From Candidatus Sungiibacteriota bacterium (GTDB lineage: Bacteria > Patescibacteriota > Minisyncoccia > Sungbacterales > HO2-52-23): a stretch of 64,000 nt of DNA. Shown here piece after piece: positions 3,408 through 23,964 of this stretch. The notes under the pieces were generated by a model, which was not told the origin of the DNA, searched no databases, and saw nothing but the letters and a program-made list of their open reading frames with translations. The stretch is taken from the NCBI GenBank assembly GCA_016180435.1, contig JACPBG010000002.1:60342-124341 (forward strand), in the 5' to 3' direction. The translations under genes were made by a program, and so were the position numbers. Positions within the stretch are counted from its first letter, which is position 1, and the number at the start of each line of letters is the position of its first letter.

Positions 3408-3914
3408 ATGCGCAGATCAAAGGTAAAGGTGGAGACGAAAAAGGTGAAGCACGAGTGGGGGAAAAATCGCATGGTGGTTTTGGAAGCTGGCGAGAATTTG
3501 GACCTCGGTAAGCTCTTTGAAAAGGACACTCTTGTGTCCCATGAGTATTGGGATTCGCTTAAAAGAAAAATGCAGCTTGATCCGGAAAAACAGCTTTTGT
3601 TTGCGGTGTTGGAAGACGCAGTGCATTGTTTTCAGAAATATATTAGTTTTTCCAGCCGGAGAGGCCGCACACTTTTTTTAGACGCCGATACCTGGATTCA
3701 GGAAAAAGACGCAAATGACCTGTTTTCGTTTGAGGGCGTTTGCGATCATCTCGGATTTGATGCGGATTATGTTCGGGAGGGTCTGAATCGTTGGAAAGAG
3801 CGGAATCGGTGTCCGGTAGAAATCCAGGTGAGCCGGAAAAGAAGAGGGCGTAAGCTGCGCGATCTTACGGTTTTTGAAGTATATGAAAAACCACCAAATG
3901 CGGCGGTTGTATAA
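3408..3914 (+). CDS. hypothetical protein
   Basis: ATG at 3408 follows GGGGAG. The 168-aa ORF matches no motif I recognise. Confidence 0.45.
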   Translation: MRRSKVKVETKKVKHEWGKNRMVVLEAGENLDLGKLFEKDTLVSHEYWDSLKRKMQLDPEKQLLFAVLEDAVHCFQKYISFSSRRGRTLFLDADTWIQEKDANDLFSFEGVCDHLGFDADYVREGLNRWKERNRCPVEIQVSRKRRGRKLRDLTVFEVYEKPPNAAVV

Positions 3915-3960
3915 TGCAGCCGTCTTTTTTTATCCCCGATTTTATGATATAGTGTGGACT

Positions 3961-5811
3961 ATGAATGCAGATGAATTACGTCAAAAATTCCTGGATTTTT
4001 TTGAGAAAAACGGACATACAGTTGTGCCGTCGTCCTCCCTGATTCCCGATGACCCGTCAGTTCTTTTAACAACCGCCGGCATGCAGCAATTCAAGCCATA
4101 TTATTCGGAGCTTGATCCGGAAAAAACTATACATCCGTCCCTTGGAAAACCGATTGGAAAAAATGTGGTATCCGTGCAAAAATCGTTTCGTACTTCGGAC
4201 ATTGACGAGGTGGGAGACGATTCCCATCTTACATTTTTTGAAATGTTGGGCAATTTTTCGTTTGGCGGATATTTTAAAAAAGAAGCGATTACATTTGCGT
4301 TTGATTTTATCACCAAGGAATTAAGAATTCCGATCTCTTTTGTAACTGTATTTGAGGGATCGCATGGTGTTGCCAAAGACGAAGAATCCCGCGCTATTTG
4401 GAAAAAACTTGGTGTTTCGGATGTGAGGGAGCAGGGGATTGAGGATGTGTTCTGGGGACCGACCGGATCAGCCGGACCATGCGGCCCCACCACCGAAATT
4501 TATTGCGAAAATGCGGCAGGCGGAAAAGCGGAAATTTGGAATATTGTTTTTAACGAATTTTATTTTCCCGGCTCGCGAGAGGAACTTTTGTCCGGTTCGT
4601 CCGGAAAATCGCTTGAGCGATTGAAAACTCCGGGCGTGGATACCGGCATGGGATTGGAACGCCTCGCGATGATTGCGCAGAACAAGAAAAATATCTTTGA
4701 GACGGATTTGTTTGTGCCTTTTTTCGAACTGTTGCCATCCGAATTGCCTGAACGCGAAAAAAGGATTATCGCGGATCATCTGCGCGGAGCCGTTTTTTTA
4801 ATAGCCGATGGTGTGCGTCCTTTGAATAAAGAAGCAGGATATATTTTGCGTCGTCTTATGCGACGAGCCTTAGTTTATGAATATAAATATAAAATTTCTC
4901 CGGAATTTTTCATCTCAATTATGGGTGAAACCATTTCTAATTATGGGAAATTTTATAGCCAACTTGTAAAGGAAAGTGAAAATATTCGGATAGAATTTGA
5001 AAATGAGCGAAAAAAATTTAGGAAATTATTACCTCACGGTTTGATACAAATAAATCATCACATTGCTTTAGATCAAGAGTTATTGAAAAAAGATTCTCCT
5101 AATATAAATAAGGAAAGGGCATTATCTGGTTTTCAGGCGGGTTTATTCGCATTTGATCTTTTTCAAGATTCCGGTTTTCCTACCGAAGTGAGTAAAGAGT
5201 TATTTGAACAAGCCAACTATGATCTTACTCGCTTTGAGGCGGGTGTCCTGGAGAAAGCTAAAAAACACCAAGAGATTTCGCGTCGGGGCACCGAAAAAAA
5301 ATTCGGGGGGCATGGATTATTGCTGGACACCGGGGAACTTAAAGCCGCGGATGAAAATGAATTAAAAATCGTAACGCGGCTCCATACCGCAACCCATATG
5401 CTCCAGCAGGCCTTGCGGGAGGTTTTAGGGCCGGACGTGCATCAGGCCGGATCGGACATTACCGTGGAGCGCACGCGGTTTGATTTCACGTTTCAGCGAA
5501 AACTGACTTCCGAGGAGATAAAGCAGGTGGAGGATTTGGTTAATCAAAAAATAAAAGAGGATTTGCCTATGCAAAAAAAAGTGCTTCCGAAGTCGGAAGC
5601 GGAAAAAACCGGCGCGCTTTATTTTTTCAAAGAAAAATATCCGGATCCGGTGAATGTTTATTTTATCGGGAAAGATTTGGAAAATGCTTGGAGCAAAGAA
5701 TTTTGCGGAGGTCCGCATGTAATGCATACCGGCGAGATCGGTAAATTTAGAATTGCTAAAGAAGAAGCAGTGGGGGCGGAAGTTCGTAGAATCCGTGCGG
5801 TTGTGGAATAA
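3961..5811 (+). CDS. alaS: alanine--tRNA ligase, short form (616 aa)
   Basis: The class II core shows FFEKNGH, LLTTAGMQQFKP, HLTFFEMLGNFSFGGYFK and GVDTGMGLERL. The editing domain shows HTATHML and CGGPH. The ORF ends right after the editing domain. Confidence 0.9.
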   Translation: MNADELRQKFLDFFEKNGHTVVPSSSLIPDDPSVLLTTAGMQQFKPYYSELDPEKTIHPSLGKPIGKNVVSVQKSFRTSDIDEVGDDSHLTFFEMLGNFSFGGYFKKEAITFAFDFITKELRIPISFVTVFEGSHGVAKDEESRAIWKKLGVSDVREQGIEDVFWGPTGSAGPCGPTTEIYCENAAGGKAEIWNIVFNEFYFPGSREELLSGSSGKSLERLKTPGVDTGMGLERLAMIAQNKKNIFETDLFVPFFELLPSELPEREKRIIADHLRGAVFLIADGVRPLNKEAGYILRRLMRRALVYEYKYKISPEFFISIMGETISNYGKFYSQLVKESENIRIEFENERKKFRKLLPHGLIQINHHIALDQELLKKDSPNINKERALSGFQAGLFAFDLFQDSGFPTEVSKELFEQANYDLTRFEAGVLEKAKKHQEISRRGTEKKFGGHGLLLDTGELKAADENELKIVTRLHTATHMLQQALREVLGPDVHQAGSDITVERTRFDFTFQRKLTSEEIKQVEDLVNQKIKEDLPMQKKVLPKSEAEKTGALYFFKEKYPDPVNVYFIGKDLENAWSKEFCGGPHVMHTGEIGKFRIAKEEAVGAEVRRIRAVVE

Positions 5812-5818
5812 AATATAA

Positions 5819-5843
5819 GCGTTGTCACGGACAGTGACAACGC
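5819..5843 (+). terminator. hairpin after alaS (10-bp stem, no clear U-run)
   Basis: GCGTTGTCAC-ggaca-GTGACAACGC. Confidence 0.35.
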
Positions 5844-6066
5844 GCAATCCTTTCGTAGCTTTCTTGACCTCCGAAGTTTTAACGAAGTAGGTAGCGAAGT
5901 CTGAATACGCCACCCGTCTGGCGTATTCAGAAAGAAACAAAAGCCCCGCGAATGCGAGACTTCTGCCTGATCTCAACGTAATACGAGATACAGGATTATC
6001 ACCTAATTGTATTGTAGCAGATCATAATATTCTGTCAATAGCGGGGCCTGTGGATATCCTTGAAGC

Positions 6067-6136
6067 GGTGGAGGTGCGGGGAATTGCACCCCGGAGATCA
6101 TGGGTGATAATCCTGAACTCGCACTACGCCACCCCC
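6067..6136 (-). other. tRNA(Ala)-acceptor-like element (not a canonical tRNA)
   Basis: The minus strand reads GGGGGTG...CGGGG-TGCAATT-CCCCG-CACCTCC-A-CC. This gives a 7-bp acceptor-like stem with a G3.U70 wobble, a T-arm-like hairpin and an A73-like base followed by CC. The D-arm region is aberrant. Confidence 0.3.
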
Positions 6137-6252
6137 ACCGCAGATTCAGAATATCAGGACGAGTGATTATTGTAAATAATTCCTGTGGCATTTCGAGTAG
6201 TGGGAAAAGTGTATGAAGTGTCATAGTGATTAAATGGTGTTAGAGTATACGT

Positions 6253-6597
6253 ATGTCTATAAAAATCATTAAAAACAAAATATTTAAATCCGAGCTTTCG
6301 GAAATTGCCCAAAATCAATTCGGCGATTTTGTGAAAGCTGTGGTGGACATAAAAAAAGGGATAATGGCAGTCGGCGGTGAACTTCATGCTGATGAAGAAG
6401 CCCTGCTTTTAGAAGATGGCTCCCGGCAAGAAAATTTGTGGGGCATAAATTTGTATCCGAATAAAACCGCCAAGGATCGGATTGAATTTAATTCCATGAT
6501 AAATGTCCGGCCGTCCCAGGGAAATCGTTCGCGAGGGGTGGAGAATCCGGATATTCAGGAGAAGATAAAAACAATAGTTAAAAAGTTAGTTTCTTGA
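6253..6597 (+). CDS. small conserved hypothetical protein (resembles DUF5674 as I recall that family)
   Basis: 114-aa ORF containing FVKAVVDIKKGIMAVGGELHADEEALLLEDGSRQENLWGINLYP. The family assignment is from memory only. Confidence 0.5.
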   Translation: MSIKIIKNKIFKSELSEIAQNQFGDFVKAVVDIKKGIMAVGGELHADEEALLLEDGSRQENLWGINLYPNKTAKDRIEFNSMINVRPSQGNRSRGVENPDIQEKIKTIVKKLVS

Positions 6598-6601
6598 TGC
6601 C

Positions 6602-6931
6602 ATGCCCTTAGTACATAAAAATTTAGCGCGCGGAGCATGGCATAAACTCTCTTTAATTGAGCAATTGGCAAATATAGGCAGTGAAATAAGCCGTGCCCGG
6701 AATTGGCAGAATAAGGATCAGGGTATTTTTGAAAATGCGGTGTTAAGGGCGCTTGAGCTTTTTGATCTGACCCTGGCTGATCCGCGCTGGCGCGGCCGGC
6801 TGCGAGAAATAGCGCGGACACGAGAAGTATTTTTGGATGCGTTATCCGGCGGCAAAGAATATCAAAGTTCGCTGGATGACCTGGATCGATATTTTCTAAG
6901 TTTTGCCTATTGCGCCCGTTTAAATTTATAA
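6602..6931 (+). CDS. hypothetical protein
   Basis: 109-aa ORF starting 4 nt after the previous stop. I recognise no motif. Confidence 0.4.
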   Translation: MPLVHKNLARGAWHKLSLIEQLANIGSEISRARNWQNKDQGIFENAVLRALELFDLTLADPRWRGRLREIARTREVFLDALSGGKEYQSSLDDLDRYFLSFAYCARLNL

Positions 6932-6957
6932 AAGAACGGCCATTTAATATAAAGCCA

Positions 6958-7491
6958 ATGATTCATTTCATCACCGGGAACAAGGATAAATTTGAGGAAA
7001 TAAAAGCGATTTTGCCCGAAATCGAGCGGATGAAAATTGATCTGCCGGAAATTCAGGAAATTGACGCCCATGAAATCATCCGGCAAAAATTAGAAAGCGC
7101 GCAAAAGCACGCCAAAGGCGAGTTTATGGTAGAGGACACCTCGCTTTATTTGGAATGTTTGAATGGTCTGCCCGGACCTCTGATAAAATGGTTTTTGAAA
7201 ACTATCGGCGTCGGGGGTTTAGCGGGCTTGGCAGAGAAATTGGAAAATACGAAAGCAGAAGCGAAGACCGTTATTGGATATATGAGTGGCAGTGGAGAAA
7301 TTAGATTTTTTGAAGGAATCGTAAAAGGACAGATTATTTCTCCGCGCGGGGAGAAACGTTTTGAGTGGGACCGGATTTTTAGGCCCGATGGTCATGATAA
7401 AACATTTGCCGAAATGGGAATGGAGGAGAAAAATAAGATCAGCATGCGCCGGATTGCGGTGAATAGATTAAAGAAGTTTTTGAAAGCGTAA
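6958..7491 (+). CDS. non-canonical purine NTP pyrophosphatase (HAM1/ITPase family)
   Basis: The N-terminus reads MIHFITGNKDKFEEI, followed by EDTSLYLECLNGLPGPLIKWF and the tail MRRIAVNRL. The ATG at 6958 avoids overlap with the upstream ORF. Confidence 0.8.
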   Translation: MIHFITGNKDKFEEIKAILPEIERMKIDLPEIQEIDAHEIIRQKLESAQKHAKGEFMVEDTSLYLECLNGLPGPLIKWFLKTIGVGGLAGLAEKLENTKAEAKTVIGYMSGSGEIRFFEGIVKGQIISPRGEKRFEWDRIFRPDGHDKTFAEMGMEEKNKISMRRIAVNRLKKFLKA

Positions 7492-7544
7492 GTGTACGAA
7501 TAATAAACGAATTACTTAACGAATTTGAACGAATCACGAATACA

Positions 7545-7595
7545 TAAATAATAAAAAGTGTAGAACCCCCGGGAGCACGAGGCTCGCGGGGGTTC
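7545..7595 (-). terminator. Rho-independent terminator (minus strand)
   Basis: GC-rich hairpin GAACCCCC...GGGGGTTC, followed on the minus strand by CTACACTTTTTATTATTT. Confidence 0.7.
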
Positions 7596-7746
7596 AACTT
7601 GGCTAGGCGTATTTCTACGCCGGCGCCGACGACCTAGGTTAACGCATTCAAATTAAACGCGTTTTTGGTCTTCACGTCATGGTTCCTCCTTTCTTTGGCC
7701 TCCACACGTCGTGTGGATAGGGTAACGATGACACTTCAAGAACCAT
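7596..7746 (-). ncRNA. candidate small RNA or leaderless micro-ORF transcript
   Basis: Consensus-like promoter upstream and terminator downstream. It contains AAAGAAAGGAGGAACC-ATG-ACG-TGA and several hairpins. No ORF of 60 aa or more. Confidence 0.35.
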
Positions 7747-7751
7747 TTTTA

Positions 7752-7779
7752 AGTATACTCTTCGTATATTTATTGTCAA
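7752..7779 (-). promoter_or_regulatory. sigma-70-like promoter (minus strand)
   Basis: TTGACA (7779-7774), 16-nt spacer, TATACT (7757-7752). Confidence 0.6.
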
Positions 7780-7844
7780 GTCGCATAAGAGGGGATAGCC
7801 CTGCTTTTTTGTTTACCCGCCTTACTATATAATAGAAATAAGCC

Positions 7845-9041
7845 ATGTTTTCTTTATTTAAAAACAGAAAAGCGCCCTTATACGCAGCTATAGACGTCGG
7901 ATCCCATGCGGTAAAAGCCGTTATTTTCGAGAAGACGCGGGATAAAAAAAATCCCAAGGTTTTGAAAAAAATAATCATGAAGCTGCCTCCGGCATTTGAG
8001 CCGATTCGAATGGTGCATAAGCTCCGGGAGATACTTTTCGTAGTGGTAAAGGAACTTGGGCGCATTCCGGAGAAATTGGTGATCGCGTTCGGGACATCTC
8101 TGGCCGCGCATACGTTTGAGGTCTGGAATGCGGGTACGCTGTCGGCGGAAGAGGTATCGGCCGAGGCACTTGGCCGTTTATTCAAAAGTATCGCCGATTC
8201 GCATATATCGGCCGGACGTTTTATTTTCGCCTATCCCATTGAGGCCTTGGTCAATGGATATACGGTTGCATATTTTAAAACCGGAAATTGGATTTCGGCG
8301 GGTCTTGGAAAAAACGGCGCGTCAGGCGAGATATTTAAAAAAATAGCATTGTATCCGGGCAGTGCCATAAGTTTTCGCGCCTTGATTCTCACTTGCGCTG
8401 AAGACGTGGGCGAGGGTCTGCTTAATTTAAAGAAAAGTTTCGGGGGCATGCCGATTGAGTTTATCCCCATATCTTTTGCGCATCAGCATGCCGCTACGCG
8501 GGTTTTGGGATATCGCGATGTCATGCTGATTGATATTGGCGGGGAAATGACGGTTTTGGCCGAGATTCAAGAATCCGTGATCGGCGAAATCGCTTCAATC
8601 GAGGTTGGCGGCAGGAATTTTGTACGCGGAATTGCGCGGGTAGCCGGGATTTCCTTTGATGAGGCCGAGGATTTGAAGCGCCAGTATGCCAGCGATCAAA
8701 TCAGCGAGGAGCGAAAAAAAATGATCCGCTCATTCATAGGGCAGGAAGCAGATTTTTGGAAAAAAAAGTTTTTGGAATCGCTGGATGCGTTTTATCGCCT
8801 CGGACCCCTGCCGCCCGAGGTCCTGCTTTTCGGAGGCGGCTCAAACCTGGAGGATATTGCCTCATATCTCCGCGAAGGCGGATGGCTGGAAGATTTTTCG
8901 TACGCGAAATCAGCTACGGTACGATTGATGCGCGGCTCCGATTTGTTCGATGGATCATCCCTGAAAGGTTTTTTACAGGGTCCGGATGAATTTGCTATAG
9001 GGTCGCTGATTCATTATGCGTTGGAAGAATCAAATCACTAA
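7845..9041 (+). CDS. actin-fold ATPase of the FtsA/PilM family
   Basis: Phosphate-1 motif AAIDVGSHAVKAV, then MLIDIGGEMTVLAEI and VGGRNFVRGIARVAGISFDEAEDLKRQY. No ftsZ gene is adjacent. Confidence 0.7.
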   Translation: MFSLFKNRKAPLYAAIDVGSHAVKAVIFEKTRDKKNPKVLKKIIMKLPPAFEPIRMVHKLREILFVVVKELGRIPEKLVIAFGTSLAAHTFEVWNAGTLSAEEVSAEALGRLFKSIADSHISAGRFIFAYPIEALVNGYTVAYFKTGNWISAGLGKNGASGEIFKKIALYPGSAISFRALILTCAEDVGEGLLNLKKSFGGMPIEFIPISFAHQHAATRVLGYRDVMLIDIGGEMTVLAEIQESVIGEIASIEVGGRNFVRGIARVAGISFDEAEDLKRQYASDQISEERKKMIRSFIGQEADFWKKKFLESLDAFYRLGPLPPEVLLFGGGSNLEDIASYLREGGWLEDFSYAKSATVRLMRGSDLFDGSSLKGFLQGPDEFAIGSLIHYALEESNH

Positions 9042-10952: not shown

Positions 10953-11080
10953 TTTCAATTTCAGACACGACTCAACCGCTCCGGCGGCGGTCTCGCTAAG
11001 GGTCGGACAAATTTTCGTCCCGATTGCGATCGGGATGATCCAAGCAAATTTGTCCTCCCATTGTCTGAAATTTAAATTAT
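10950..11080 (+). repeat. R3 structured intergenic element, copy 1 (infA-rpmJ spacer)
   Basis: Outer stem TTTCAGACA/TGTCTGAAA, P2 stem ACCGC/GCGGT, conserved CTAAGGGTCGG, P3 stem GGACAAATTT/AAATTTGTCC, conserved CCTCCCATTG. Confidence 0.8.
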
Positions 11081-14054: not shown

Positions 14055-14194
14055 TTCGGCTAATTTGATTTCAGACACGACTCGGCGGCTCCGGCGGCCG
14101 CCTCGCTAAGGGTCGGACAAATTTTCGTCCCGATTGCGATCGGGACGATCCGAGCAAATTTGTCCTCCCATTGTCTGAAATCAAAATAGCCTCG
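14055..14194 (+). repeat. R3 structured intergenic element, copy 2 (rpoA-rplQ spacer)
   Basis: Same core as copy 1, but the P2 stem is changed to GGCGGC/GCCGCC. Confidence 0.8.
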
Positions 14195-23841: not shown

Positions 23842-23964
23842 GCATTTCGTTTTCAAGACACGCAAATTTTTGCCAGCGCAAAAATTTGCTAAGGGTCGGC
23901 GAAGTTTTCCGCCAAAGGCGGAACCATGCAAACTTCGCCTCCCATTGTCTTGAAAACAAAATGC
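23842..23964 (+). repeat. R3 structured intergenic element, copy 3 (murA-mreB spacer), with compensatory changes
   Basis: Outer stem TTTTCAAGACA/TGTCTTGAAAA, P2 stem GCAAATTTTTGC/GCAAAAATTTGC, conserved CTAAGGGTCGG, P3 stem GGCGAAGTTT/AAACTTCGCC, conserved CCTCCCATTG. Confidence 0.8.

What the first reader, a model, noticed from the sequence alone, without database searches (positions are those of the whole stretch)
7545..7785. Orphan promoter-to-terminator unit (~195 nt, minus strand) with a leaderless micro-ORF and an extended Shine-Dalgarno followed by ATG-ACG-TGA
- A good promoter (TTGACA, 16 nt, TATACT) and a strong GC-rich terminator followed by a T-run bracket about 195 nt. No conventional gene lies between them.
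- An ATG sits 5 nt after the -10 box, opening a 24-codon ORF (MVLEVSSLPYPHDVWRPKKGGTMT).
- The end of that ORF contains AAAGAAAGGAGGAACC-ATG-ACG-TGA. This is a 10-nt match to the canonical anti-SD complement followed by a two-codon start-stop.
- Downstream are hairpins GGCGTA-tttc-TACGCC (as written on the plus strand) and CCACAC-gac-GTGTGG.
- It could be an sRNA, a ribosome-sequestering or start-stop regulatory RNA, or a micro-protein gene.
Basis: partly seen in the sequence, partly recalled or inferred. Interest (0 to 1): 0.5.

Follow-up and report, generated by a model that had tools for sequence, protein, structure and literature searches.

The report
Conserved small RNA with ribosome-binding mini-ORF

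Summary
These are a near-consensus promoter, AAAGAAAGGAGG-N4-ATG-ACG-TGA, the hairpins, and a GC-rich terminal hairpin with a T-run.

The unit is not a chance assembly. The same unit lies between rdgB/Ham1 and the ftsA/pilM-like gene in five other related metagenomic genomes.
- The promoter is conserved.
- Four helices (P1-P4) show compensatory changes: 10 pairs with double changes against 3.3 in shuffles, 0/500.
- G.U pairs fit only the minus strand.

The leaderless 24-codon ORF is refuted. Its ATG is AAG or ACG in two relatives, and a third has a stop at codon 4.

What is conserved:
- the 5' end GGUUCU;
- the extended Shine-Dalgarno sequence, left unpaired between P1 and P2;
- AUGACGUGA, which forms the 5' strand of P2;
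- two single-stranded linkers and the P3-P4 domain.

A second ORF (GUG/AUG, 11-15 codons) stays open in all six sequences, but its peptide is not conserved.

No Rfam family matches, and no copy was found outside this clade.

Best reading: a new structured small RNA that loads a ribosome in cis through its SD and mini-ORF. The mechanism is inferred, not shown. Interest is moderate.

The parts
7774..7779 (-). -35 box TTGACA
   Evidence: 11/12 promoter match. TTGACA is present in all six homologues.
7752..7757 (-). -10 box TATACT
   Evidence: The box is TATACT or TATAAT in all six homologues, with a 16-18 nt spacer in five; L008 has an anomalous 27-nt spacing.
7552..7746 (-). Predicted transcript of about 190-195 nt. 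Both ends are inferred from the promoter and from the hairpin plus T-run; neither was mapped.
   Evidence: MFE -75.1 kcal/mol, z -4.97. nhmmer matches 7746-7556.
7739..7744 (-). Conserved 5' end GGUUCU
   Evidence: GGUUC is invariant in all six sequences, whereas the preceding 'ATG' is not.
7701..7717 (-). P1 hairpin (CCACAC-GAC-GUGUGG)
   Evidence: A hairpin sits at this position in all six sequences, with a different sequence in each. L043 carries an extra inserted hairpin upstream.
7685..7696 (-). Extended Shine-Dalgarno sequence AAAGAAAGGAGG, single-stranded between P1 and P2
   Evidence: AAGAAAGGAG is conserved in 5 of 6 (L002 has AAGAAGGGA). Its unpaired probability is 0.42-0.90 in 5 of 6. 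It is the only exact copy in the window.
7672..7680 (-). Two-codon mini-ORF AUG-ACG-UGA. The UGA overlaps a GUG start codon (GUGA).
   Evidence: Identical in the window, L042, L043 and L044. L008 has AUG-UGA. L002 has AUG followed by 9 further sense codons (MHEGKKHFFV).
7634..7675 (-). Second micro-ORF, GUG plus 12 codons plus UAG (MKTKNAFNLNALT)
   Evidence: Open for 11-15 codons in all six, with the stop 6-12 nt before P3. The peptide is not conserved beyond about 3 residues.
7656..7678 (-). P2 helix: GACGUG (7678-7673) pairs with CGCGUU (7661-7656), sequestering the start and stop codons
   Evidence: helix 1: G.U/G-C and U.G/U-A alternation, one compensatory G-C to A-U change. The AUG is mostly paired. 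A competing local hairpin at 7663-7641 appears in the window's MFE.
7628..7638 (-). Conserved single-stranded linker CCUAGGUCGUC (J2/3)
7601..7627 (-). P3: outer GGC/GCC stem enclosing hairpin GGCGUA-GAAA-UACGCC
   Evidence: The inner hairpin covaries (GUGGGCA/UGCCCAC in L002) and is replaced by a tetraloop in L044, while the outer stem is kept.
7560..7598 (-). P4: long GC-rich terminal hairpin including an outer GU/AC extension
   Evidence: 7 of 15 pairs have compensatory changes. The outer pairs are GAU/AUC in some sequences and GU/AC in others.
7553..7557 (-). T-run after P4 (probable termination point in this genome)
   Evidence: Present in the window, L002 and L044 only.

Best explanation
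The locus is a genuine, independently transcribed small RNA gene on the minus strand. It is about 172-213 nt in the six versions seen and was found only in one narrow clade of Candidatus Sungbacteria. It always lies convergent to rdgB/Ham1 and divergent from the ftsA/pilM-like gene.

Shown:
- The promoter is conserved.
- The RNA folds into four helices. The order is 5' GGUUCU, P1 hairpin, an unpaired 10-12 nt Shine-Dalgarno sequence, P2 (whose 5' strand is AUGACGUGA), linker CCUAGGUCGUC, P3, linker AAG, and the long P4 hairpin.
- Compensatory changes support the helices, and the G.U pairs fit only this strand.

Inferred mechanism:
- The exposed strong SD, with an AUG 4 nt downstream of GGAGG in the window, recruits a ribosome.
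- That ribosome translates only Met-Thr-stop (Met-stop in L008), or re-initiates at the overlapping GUG to read 11-15 non-conserved codons ending just before P3.
- The peptide is therefore not the product. Ribosome loading acts in cis on the RNA. It opens P2 and protects or remodels the conserved 3' domain (linkers, P3, P4), which would be the effector part.

In short, this is read as a structured sRNA with a built-in ribosome-loading mini-ORF that works as a stabiliser or ribosome-availability sensor.
For: Promoter: 11/12 match, with both boxes conserved in all six genomes. Near-consensus promoters are enriched in this genome, 7 against 1.5 expected.

Structure:
- z = -4.97.
- On an unbiased MAFFT alignment, 91.9% of cells pair against 84.1% in shuffles (0/500). 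There are 10 pairs with double changes against 3.3 in shuffles (0/500). Slid controls give at most 2.
- On the curated alignment, 205 of 208 cells are canonical, 16 pairs are compensatory, and there are 6 G.U against 0 A.C.
- L043 has an inserted hairpin and L044 lacks the inner P3 hairpin, yet the flanking pairs are preserved.

Ribosome-binding site:
- GAAAGGAG is conserved in 5 of 6, with an AUG at fixed spacing in all six.
- Genes in this window do use AGGAGG-type SDs.
- The SD is largely unpaired while the AUG is paired.

Peptides: not conserved.

Precedents:
- An SD that stabilises RNA by binding the 30S subunit without initiating translation (PMC4113751).
- Functional start-stop sites (10.1101/520783).
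- A two-codon ATG-ACT-TAA minigene that acts in cis, possibly by protecting the mRNA (PMC8708949).
Against: - There are no expression data of any kind. Transcription, transcript ends and ribosome binding are all inferred.
- Only six distinct sequences from one narrow clade are available, so covariation power is limited, and P1 had to be aligned by structure.
- L002 lacks the two-codon ORF: its first AUG opens a 10-residue ORF (MHEGKKHFFV), and its SD is weaker.
- The GGAGG-to-AUG spacing of 4-5 nt is at the short end of the functional range.
- No target, partner or downstream gene was identified, so the output of the proposed ribosome loading is unknown.
- The GUG/AUG ORF stays open in 6 of 6, which would also fit a real micro-peptide.
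Confidence: 0.45

Rival explanations
1. Non-translated structured sRNA. The purine-rich 'SD' and the AUG are structural or seed elements. The RNA acts in trans by base pairing, or by binding a protein, through its conserved single-stranded stretches (5' GGUUCU, AAGAAAGGAG, CCUAGGUCGUC, AGCCAAG).
For: The helices covary and the linkers are conserved at nucleotide level. AUGACGUGA is conserved as the 5' strand of P2, which by itself explains its conservation. The AUG is mostly base-paired.
Against: A perfect 10-nt anti-SD complement with an AUG at fixed spacing in 6 of 6 would then be a coincidence. No complementary target was found in the 64-kb window for the 5' end or for linker J2/3 beyond chance; this tests only about a tenth of the genome at most.
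Confidence: 0.2
2. Micro-protein gene. The product is the 11-15-residue peptide read from the GUG (AUG in L002) that overlaps the UGA (window: MKTKNAFNLNALT). The RNA helices serve only mRNA stability and termination.
For: A start codon with an SD is present, and the ORF is open in all six genomes. It always ends 6-12 nt before P3 and is the longest of the three frames in 5 of 6. The product of the per-sequence shuffle probabilities is 0.013.
Against: - The peptides share only about M-K/T-T/A (MKTKNAFNLNALT, MKTLTRFSVITTNAD, MKKRNTSLANG, MNTQKTSRFNVT, MTTKIKFLFNV, MKAKNTFLFNHCMLT), and their lengths vary.
- Each ORF alone has p of about 0.5, and the six sequences are not independent.
- The most conserved part of the RNA (linkers, P3, P4) lies downstream of the stop codon.
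- Part of the apparent K/N/F signal comes from an A-run/U-run hairpin.
Confidence: 0.15
3. Leader-peptide-type attenuator or convergent antisense regulator. Translation of the micro-ORF decides whether P4 terminates transcription. Read-through RNA runs antisense into rdgB/Ham1 and down-regulates it. Alternatively, the rdgB 3' UTR overlaps the unit and the two RNAs pair.
For: The layout is promoter, SD and short ORF, hairpins, then a terminal hairpin. The unit is always convergent with rdgB, 20-70 nt from its stop codon. rdgB has no U-tract terminator of its own before the unit (sequence). P4 lacks a U-run in 3 of 6.
Against: There is no gene downstream on the same strand. The one candidate antiterminator pairing (GGUCGUC with GAUCGGACC) is not supported by compensatory changes: L002 GGCCGCC and window GAACC are uncompensated (inspection). 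The mini-ORF lies about 75 nt upstream of P4. There are no runs of regulatory codons.
Confidence: 0.1
4. Not a functional RNA. It would be a decaying gene remnant, or a functional element of the plus strand (an rdgB 3' UTR structure) that only looks like a minus-strand unit.
For: Hairpins read on either strand. The distribution is narrow.
Against: Both promoter boxes are conserved on the minus strand in 6 of 6. There are 6 G.U pairs against 0 A.C, so the helices are worse on the plus strand. Compensatory changes indicate selection on structure.
Confidence: 0.05
5. The mRNA-like piece of a split or unusual tmRNA, partnered with the tRNA-like element seen 1.4 kb away at 6136-6066.
For: A tmRNA-like tRNA-like domain lies nearby on the same strand. 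From memory only, the window's ORF resembles the B. subtilis tag GKTNSFNQNVALAA.
Against: - The unit has no tRNA-like domain or tmRNA match.
- It has a canonical SD and start codon, which tmRNA reading frames lack.
- The 'tag' C-termini differ among close relatives (ALT, NAD, ANG, NVT, FNV, MLT).
- The internal strand of the tRNA-like element is complementary to the adjacent unit at about 5997-5970, not to this RNA.
Confidence: 0.02

Closest known systems
Two-codon minigenes and start-stop sites (lambda bar minigenes from memory; axe-txe mg2 ATG-ACT-TAA and the LEE1 leader minigene, PMC8708949; E. coli yecJ and hslR start-stops, 10.1101/520783)
   Same: An SD at functional spacing is followed by AUG, then zero or one sense codon, then a stop. 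Here Met-Thr-stop is the same dipeptide as axe-txe mg2. No meaningful peptide is made, and the effect is presumed to come from ribosome occupancy in cis.
   Different: The known examples sit inside or upstream of a protein-coding cistron that they modulate. This one sits in a free-standing structured RNA of about 190 nt with no downstream gene. It is also absent from one of the six homologues (L002).
STAB-SD 5' stabiliser of B. thuringiensis cry3A mRNA and related ribosome-mediated protection from RNase J1 (PMC4113751; PMC5737220 abstract)
   Same: A strong SD-like sequence complementary to the 16S 3' end sits in the 5' part of a transcript. The motif here, GAAAGGAGG, is from memory the same core as STAB-SD. 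Its plausible role is 30S binding that shields downstream RNA.
   Different: STAB-SD does not direct initiation and protects a long mRNA. Here an AUG follows at initiation spacing and the protected entity would be a small RNA. Whether this organism has RNase J was not examined.
Dual-function sRNAs (SgrS/SgrT, RNAIII/hld, SR1/SR1P; from general knowledge)
   Same: A small, structured, independently transcribed RNA that also carries a ribosome-binding site and a short ORF.
   Different: Those peptides are 26-43 residues or longer and are conserved. Here the ORFs are 1-15 codons and not conserved, and no base-pairing target is known.
Leader-peptide transcription attenuators and the ampC SD-AUG-stop attenuator (from general knowledge)
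   Same: The order is promoter, RBS with a very short ORF, alternative hairpins, then a terminal GC-rich hairpin.
   Different: There is no structural gene downstream. No supported terminator/antiterminator alternative was found. There are no regulatory codon runs.

Membership tests
Any curated RNA family (Rfam 15, including 6S, SRP, tmRNA, RNase P, riboswitches, r-protein leaders) | Covariance-model score at or above the family's gathering threshold | tested here: not met
   No hits in the whole window at gathering. With permissive E-value filters on 7400-7900, only sub-threshold matches to the terminal hairpin appear, the best at 27.7 bits against a gathering score of 46. None in 19 related loci.
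tmRNA (standard or permuted) | tRNA-like domain: acceptor stem with G3.U70, T-arm, 3' CCA | tested here: not met
   ARAGORN finds nothing. There is no tmRNA hit in 7400-7900 even at E <= 10. P4 is a plain hairpin.
tmRNA (standard or permuted) | Tag reading frame without SD or start codon, with a conserved C-terminal degradation signal | tested here: not met
   The ORF has an SD plus AUG/GUG. C-termini differ among close relatives.
Two-codon minigene / start-stop element | SD at functional spacing, followed by a start codon, at most one sense codon, and a stop | tested here: met
   The window, L042, L043 and L044 have AUG-ACG-UGA, and L008 has AUG-UGA, 4-5 nt after GGAG(G). L002 is the exception, with a 10-residue ORF.
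Two-codon minigene / start-stop element | Ribosomes actually initiate there and this changes expression in cis | not testable with these tools
   Needs toeprinting, ribosome profiling or reporter fusions.
STAB-SD-type 5' stabiliser | SD-like sequence complementary to the 16S 3' end in the 5' part of the transcript | tested here: met
   AGAAAGGAGG lies at 7694-7685, about 52 nt from the predicted 5' end, and is conserved in 5 of 6. Complementarity is judged against the canonical CCUCCUUUCU tail; this organism's own 16S 3' end is not in the window.
STAB-SD-type 5' stabiliser | Stabilisation by 30S binding against a 5'-3' exonuclease (RNase J) | not tested
   No RNase J search was made, and there are no stability data.
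Leader-peptide attenuator | Short translated ORF upstream of a terminator | tested here: met
   ORFs of 2 and 13 codons lie upstream of P4.
Leader-peptide attenuator | Mutually exclusive terminator/antiterminator helices supported by comparison | tested here: inconclusive
   A possible pairing of GGUCGUC with GAUCGGACC exists, but sequence changes in L002 and the window are not compensated (inspection). Six sequences give little power.
Leader-peptide attenuator | Regulated structural gene downstream on the same strand | tested here: not met
   Downstream on the minus strand is only the antisense of rdgB/Ham1, 6910-7491 (+). The same holds in all homologous loci.
Intrinsic (Rho-independent) terminator | GC-rich hairpin immediately followed by a U-tract | tested here: inconclusive
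   The hairpin is present in 6 of 6. A U-run of 4-5 follows within 2-6 nt in the window, L002 and L044, but not in L008, L042 or L043. The simple scan did not call it.
Small protein gene | Conserved amino-acid sequence and a coding substitution pattern | tested here: not met
   The 24-codon ORF is broken in 3 of 6. The 11-15-codon ORF is open in 6 of 6, but the peptides are essentially unalignable after residue 3.

The most novel reading that the evidence does not exclude
A free-standing 'ribosome-loading' RNA. On this reading, a strongly promoted small RNA has as its main activity the capture of ribosomes on a 10-nt SD with a two-codon or start-stop minigene. It would act as a sensor or buffer of free ribosomes, or of Thr-tRNA(ACG)/peptidyl-tRNA turnover, in an organism with a minimal translation apparatus. 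The conserved P3-P4 domain would transmit that state to a still unknown partner. No stand-alone minigene RNA of this type has been described.
Probability: 0.12. Interest if true: 0.7.

Novelty: new member of a known kind. Interest (0 to 1): 0.4.

Why it matters
Regulatory RNAs of Candidate Phyla Radiation bacteria are almost unexplored. A full-text search for CPR small or noncoding RNAs returned nothing relevant, and no Rfam family covers this unit.

This is a clean, testable candidate. It has a consensus promoter, a defined structure with covariation, and a conserved ribosome-binding site whose ORF cannot encode a meaningful protein.

If ribosome loading is its mode of action, it would extend the minigene/start-stop/STAB-SD idea from leaders of protein genes to an independent small RNA. 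If instead the 11-15-residue peptide is real, it would be among the shortest conserved bacterial genes.

Either way the distribution seen is narrow (one Sungbacteria clade), so the wider impact is limited unless relatives are found.

Tried and rejected
1. **Leaderless 24-codon ORF: rejected.** The start codon is lost in L043 and L044, and L008 has an early stop.
2. **tmRNA coding piece: rejected.** The ORF resembles a Bacillus tag from memory, but there is no tRNA-like domain, the unit has an SD and start codon, and the C-termini vary. RNAduplex against the nearby tRNA-like element and its neighbour was no better than shuffles and is uninformative at these lengths.
3. **6S, SRP, RNase P, riboswitches, r-protein leaders: no Rfam signal**.
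4. **SD sequestration by the 5' end.** AUGGUUCU pairs with GGAACCAU in the window, but the pairing is not conserved in L008, L042 or L002 (inspection).
5. **Antiterminator pairing of J2/3 with the 5' strand of P4: no compensatory support**.
6. **Plus-strand element: disfavoured** by G.U asymmetry and promoter conservation.
7. **Wider distribution.**
   - The genome-contig scan with the FtsA-like protein gave only one distant locus without the unit.
   - The metagenome pattern scan gave 24 hits, of which only 2 are true, both the L002 species.
   - More distant Sungbacteria have alaS directly next to the ftsA-like gene, with neither Ham1 nor the unit.
   - Other CPR Ham1 loci lack it.
   - nhmmer found no second copy in 337 kb of held sequence.
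   - No match in viral contigs or phage genomes.
8. **Target search.** Searches for complements of the 5' end and of J2/3 in the window found nothing convincing.

Full report
**What is in the window**

- -35 TTGACA at 7779-7774, a 16-nt spacer, and -10 TATACT at 7757-7752.
- ATG at 7746, 5 nt after the -10 box.
- A 24-codon ORF ending at TGA 7674-7672.
- AAAGAAAGGAGGAACC at 7696-7681, followed by ATG-ACG-TGA at 7680-7672.
- Hairpins at 7716-7702 and 7621-7606.
- A long GC-rich hairpin at 7598-7560, followed by TTTTT at 7557-7553.

The unit lies between two plus-strand genes, and no conventional ORF lies between them.
- rdgB/Ham1 at 6910-7491 (Pfam PF01725, E = 1.8e-44), which is convergent.
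- An FtsA/PilM-like gene at 7845-9041 (PF14450), which is divergent.

The 195-nt RNA folds at -75.1 kcal/mol, z = -4.97. The promoter is one of only seven 11/12 matches in 128 kb of both strands, against 1.5 expected. The organism is a Candidatus Sungbacteria MAG: the FtsA-like protein is 100% identical to an NCBI entry so named.

**Known families**

Rfam finds nothing in the window at gathering thresholds. With permissive filters on 7400-7900 it finds only sub-threshold matches driven by the terminal hairpin. ARAGORN finds no tRNA or tmRNA.

**Relatives**

Contigs encoding close homologues of the two flanking proteins carry the same unit in the same place and orientation.
- Loci found through the FtsA-like protein (66-84% identity): L002-L007 and L008. 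L009 ends 85 nt upstream of the gene, before the unit.
- Loci found through Ham1 (72-81% identity): L042, L043, L044 and L045.
- This gives six distinct sequences of 172-213 nt.

The unit could not be found further afield.
- More distant Sungbacteria (35-40% FtsA-like identity) have alaS immediately followed by the ftsA-like gene, with neither Ham1 nor the unit.
- Ham1 loci of other CPR lineages lack it.
- A metagenome-wide pattern scan retrieved only the L002 species among 24 hits.
- An nhmmer profile finds exactly one copy per syntenic locus and none elsewhere in 337 kb of held sequence.
- Viral and phage collections have no match.

The family is real but, as far as these tools reach, confined to one narrow clade.

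**What is conserved**

- *Promoter.* TTGACA and TATACT/TATAAT occur in all six, with a 16-18 nt spacer in five. L008 has an odd 27-nt spacing.
- *5' end.* GGUUCU is conserved, but the 'ATG' in front of it is not. It is AAG in L043, ACG in L044 and GTG in L008, where a stop follows at codon 4. The leaderless 24-codon ORF is therefore refuted.
- *P1.* A hairpin follows in every genome, with a different sequence in each. L043 has an additional inserted hairpin.
- *Shine-Dalgarno.* AAGAAAGGAG(G) is conserved in 5 of 6, with AAGAAGGGA in L002.
- *Start region.* Four to five nucleotides later comes AUG. It reads AUG-ACG-UGA in four genomes and AUG-UGA in L008. In L002 the AUG opens a 10-residue ORF (MHEGKKHFFV).
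- *Second ORF.* In the five genomes with the short form, the UGA overlaps a GUG (GUGA). From that GUG, or from a second AUG in L002, an ORF of 11-15 codons is open in all six. It always stops 6-12 nt before P3. The peptides are essentially unrelated after the third residue. Each ORF's openness has p of about 0.5 under shuffling. The product is 0.013, which overstates significance because the sequences are related.
- *3' part.* The strongest nucleotide conservation lies in AUGACGUGAAGA, the linker CCUAGGUCGUC, GGC...GCC, AAGCCAAG and the P4 stem.

**Structure**

On the unbiased MAFFT alignment, RNAalifold predicts three elements.
- P2, in which the start-codon strand GACGUG pairs 10-30 nt downstream.
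- P3, an outer GGC/GCC stem plus an inner hairpin.
- P4.

The pair-count control gives the following.

| Measure | Observed | Control |
|---|---|---|
| Cells paired | 91.9% | 84.1% in shuffles (0/500 reach it) |
| Pairs with changes on both sides | 10 | 3.3 in shuffles (0/500 reach it) |
| Same measure, partners slid by 1-3 columns | 10 | at most 2 |

My curated alignment adds P1 and the outer extension of P4. It has 42 pairs, 205 of 208 cells canonical, 16 compensatory pairs, and 6 G.U against 0 A.C cells. That alignment was fitted by hand and leans towards the structure.

The G.U asymmetry and the conserved promoter place the functional RNA on the minus strand, not in the rdgB 3' UTR. In L044 the inner P3 hairpin is replaced by a tetraloop while the outer stem is kept. 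Partition-function folding shows the SD largely unpaired (0.42-0.90 in 5 of 6) and the AUG mostly paired.

P4 is followed by a U-run in only three genomes, so it is a conserved structural helix first and a canonical terminator only sometimes.

**Interpretation**

The conserved object is a structured small RNA that keeps a complete, strong translation-initiation region whose reading frames cannot encode a conserved protein. Genes in this window do use AGGAGG-type SDs, so the motif is likely to be read as a ribosome-binding site.

I therefore favour an RNA that recruits a ribosome in cis.
- The mini-ORF (Met-Thr-stop or Met-stop, with possible re-initiation at the overlapping GUG) would serve ribosome occupancy.
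- Occupancy would open P2 and protect or remodel the 3' domain.

This step is inferred. It rests on analogy with three precedents.
- STAB-SD (PMC4113751).
- Bacterial start-stops (10.1101/520783).
- The two-codon ATG-ACT-TAA minigene of axe-txe, which acts in cis, possibly by protecting the mRNA (PMC8708949).

Rivals that remain open:
- a purely non-translated sRNA;
- a real 11-15-residue peptide;
- a translation-coupled attenuator or antisense regulator of the convergent rdgB.

A tmRNA-related role is very unlikely.

**Verdict**

This is a new small-RNA family of a known general kind with a narrow distribution, and its mechanism is unproven. Interest is moderate (0.4).

Noticed in passing
window 6066-6136 (minus strand), with 5812-6040: A tmRNA-like tRNA-like domain sits here. 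Its acceptor stem is GGGGGUG/CACCUCC with G3.U70, its T-arm is CGGGG-UGCAAUU-CCCCG, and ACCG follows. Only 33 nt lie between the two halves. Rfam tmRNA scores 18.4 bits, E = 1.5e-5, below the gathering score of 47, and ARAGORN is silent. Immediately downstream is a near-consensus promoter (TTGACA-16-TACAAT, 6038-6011) and a second orphan unit of about 190 nt ending in a hairpin with a U-rich tail. The 5' end of that unit (about 5997-5970) is complementary over 25-27 nt, with 3 G.U, to the internal strand of the tRNA-like element (6127-6101). The whole 329-nt stretch folds with z = -7.4. It may be an unusual two-piece or reduced tmRNA, a MAG-assembly artefact, or an integration scar. No tag-like ORF was found.
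   Followed up: partly
window 7496-7541 (minus strand), between the rdgB stop codon and P4: Five direct copies of ATTCGT lie 7-12 nt apart, right after the T-run of the unit. On the plus strand they read ACGAAT, in the first 50 nt after the rdgB stop codon. There are four adjacent-pair matches against 0.16 expected, with 0 of 100 shuffles reaching that. This is the only such cluster in the window. Four copies are conserved in L002/L045 and L044, the same genomes that keep the U-run, and none in L008, L042 or L043. It could be a protein-binding array on DNA or RNA; it remains unexplained.
   Followed up: partly
window about 10955-11070, 14065-14180 and 23845-23955 (all minus strand): Three copies of an element of about 110 nt (CAGACAAUGGGAGG...GACCCUUAGC...UGUCUG) fold into a three-way junction. 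11 of 39 pairs show compensatory changes between copies. All lie in intergenic gaps, and the ORFs listed around the first two copies are mostly plus-strand. There is no Rfam match. It is a multi-copy structured RNA or a mobile element, apparently unrelated to the finding.
   Followed up: partly
window 7786-7812; the same block in L002, L008, L042, L044: A conserved block lies between the unit's promoter and the ftsA-like gene. It reads AAACAAAAAAAGCGGGCUAUCCCC on the minus strand. On the plus strand it is a weak hairpin (AGGG-GAUAG-CCCU) followed by a run of 6-7 U. It could be the plus-strand terminator of the rdgB operon, which would make the rdgB 3' UTR antisense to the whole small RNA, or it could be part of the ftsA-like promoter.
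   Followed up: no
window 5920-5950 (minus strand); L002 1986-2023; L044 and L045 68-105: Hairpin CUGAAUACGCC-N6-GGCGUAUUCAG is conserved just after the alaS stop codon in several relatives. It is probably the alaS terminator and is embedded in the second orphan unit of the window.
   Followed up: no
loci L010-L017 compared with the window 3874-9041: The interval between alaS and the ftsA-like gene is variable. The two genes are adjacent in distant Sungbacteria. L002 has rdgB plus the small RNA between them. The window has the tRNA-like element, the second orphan unit, DUF5674, a 109-residue ORF, rdgB and the small RNA. This suggests an insertion hot spot.
   Followed up: partly
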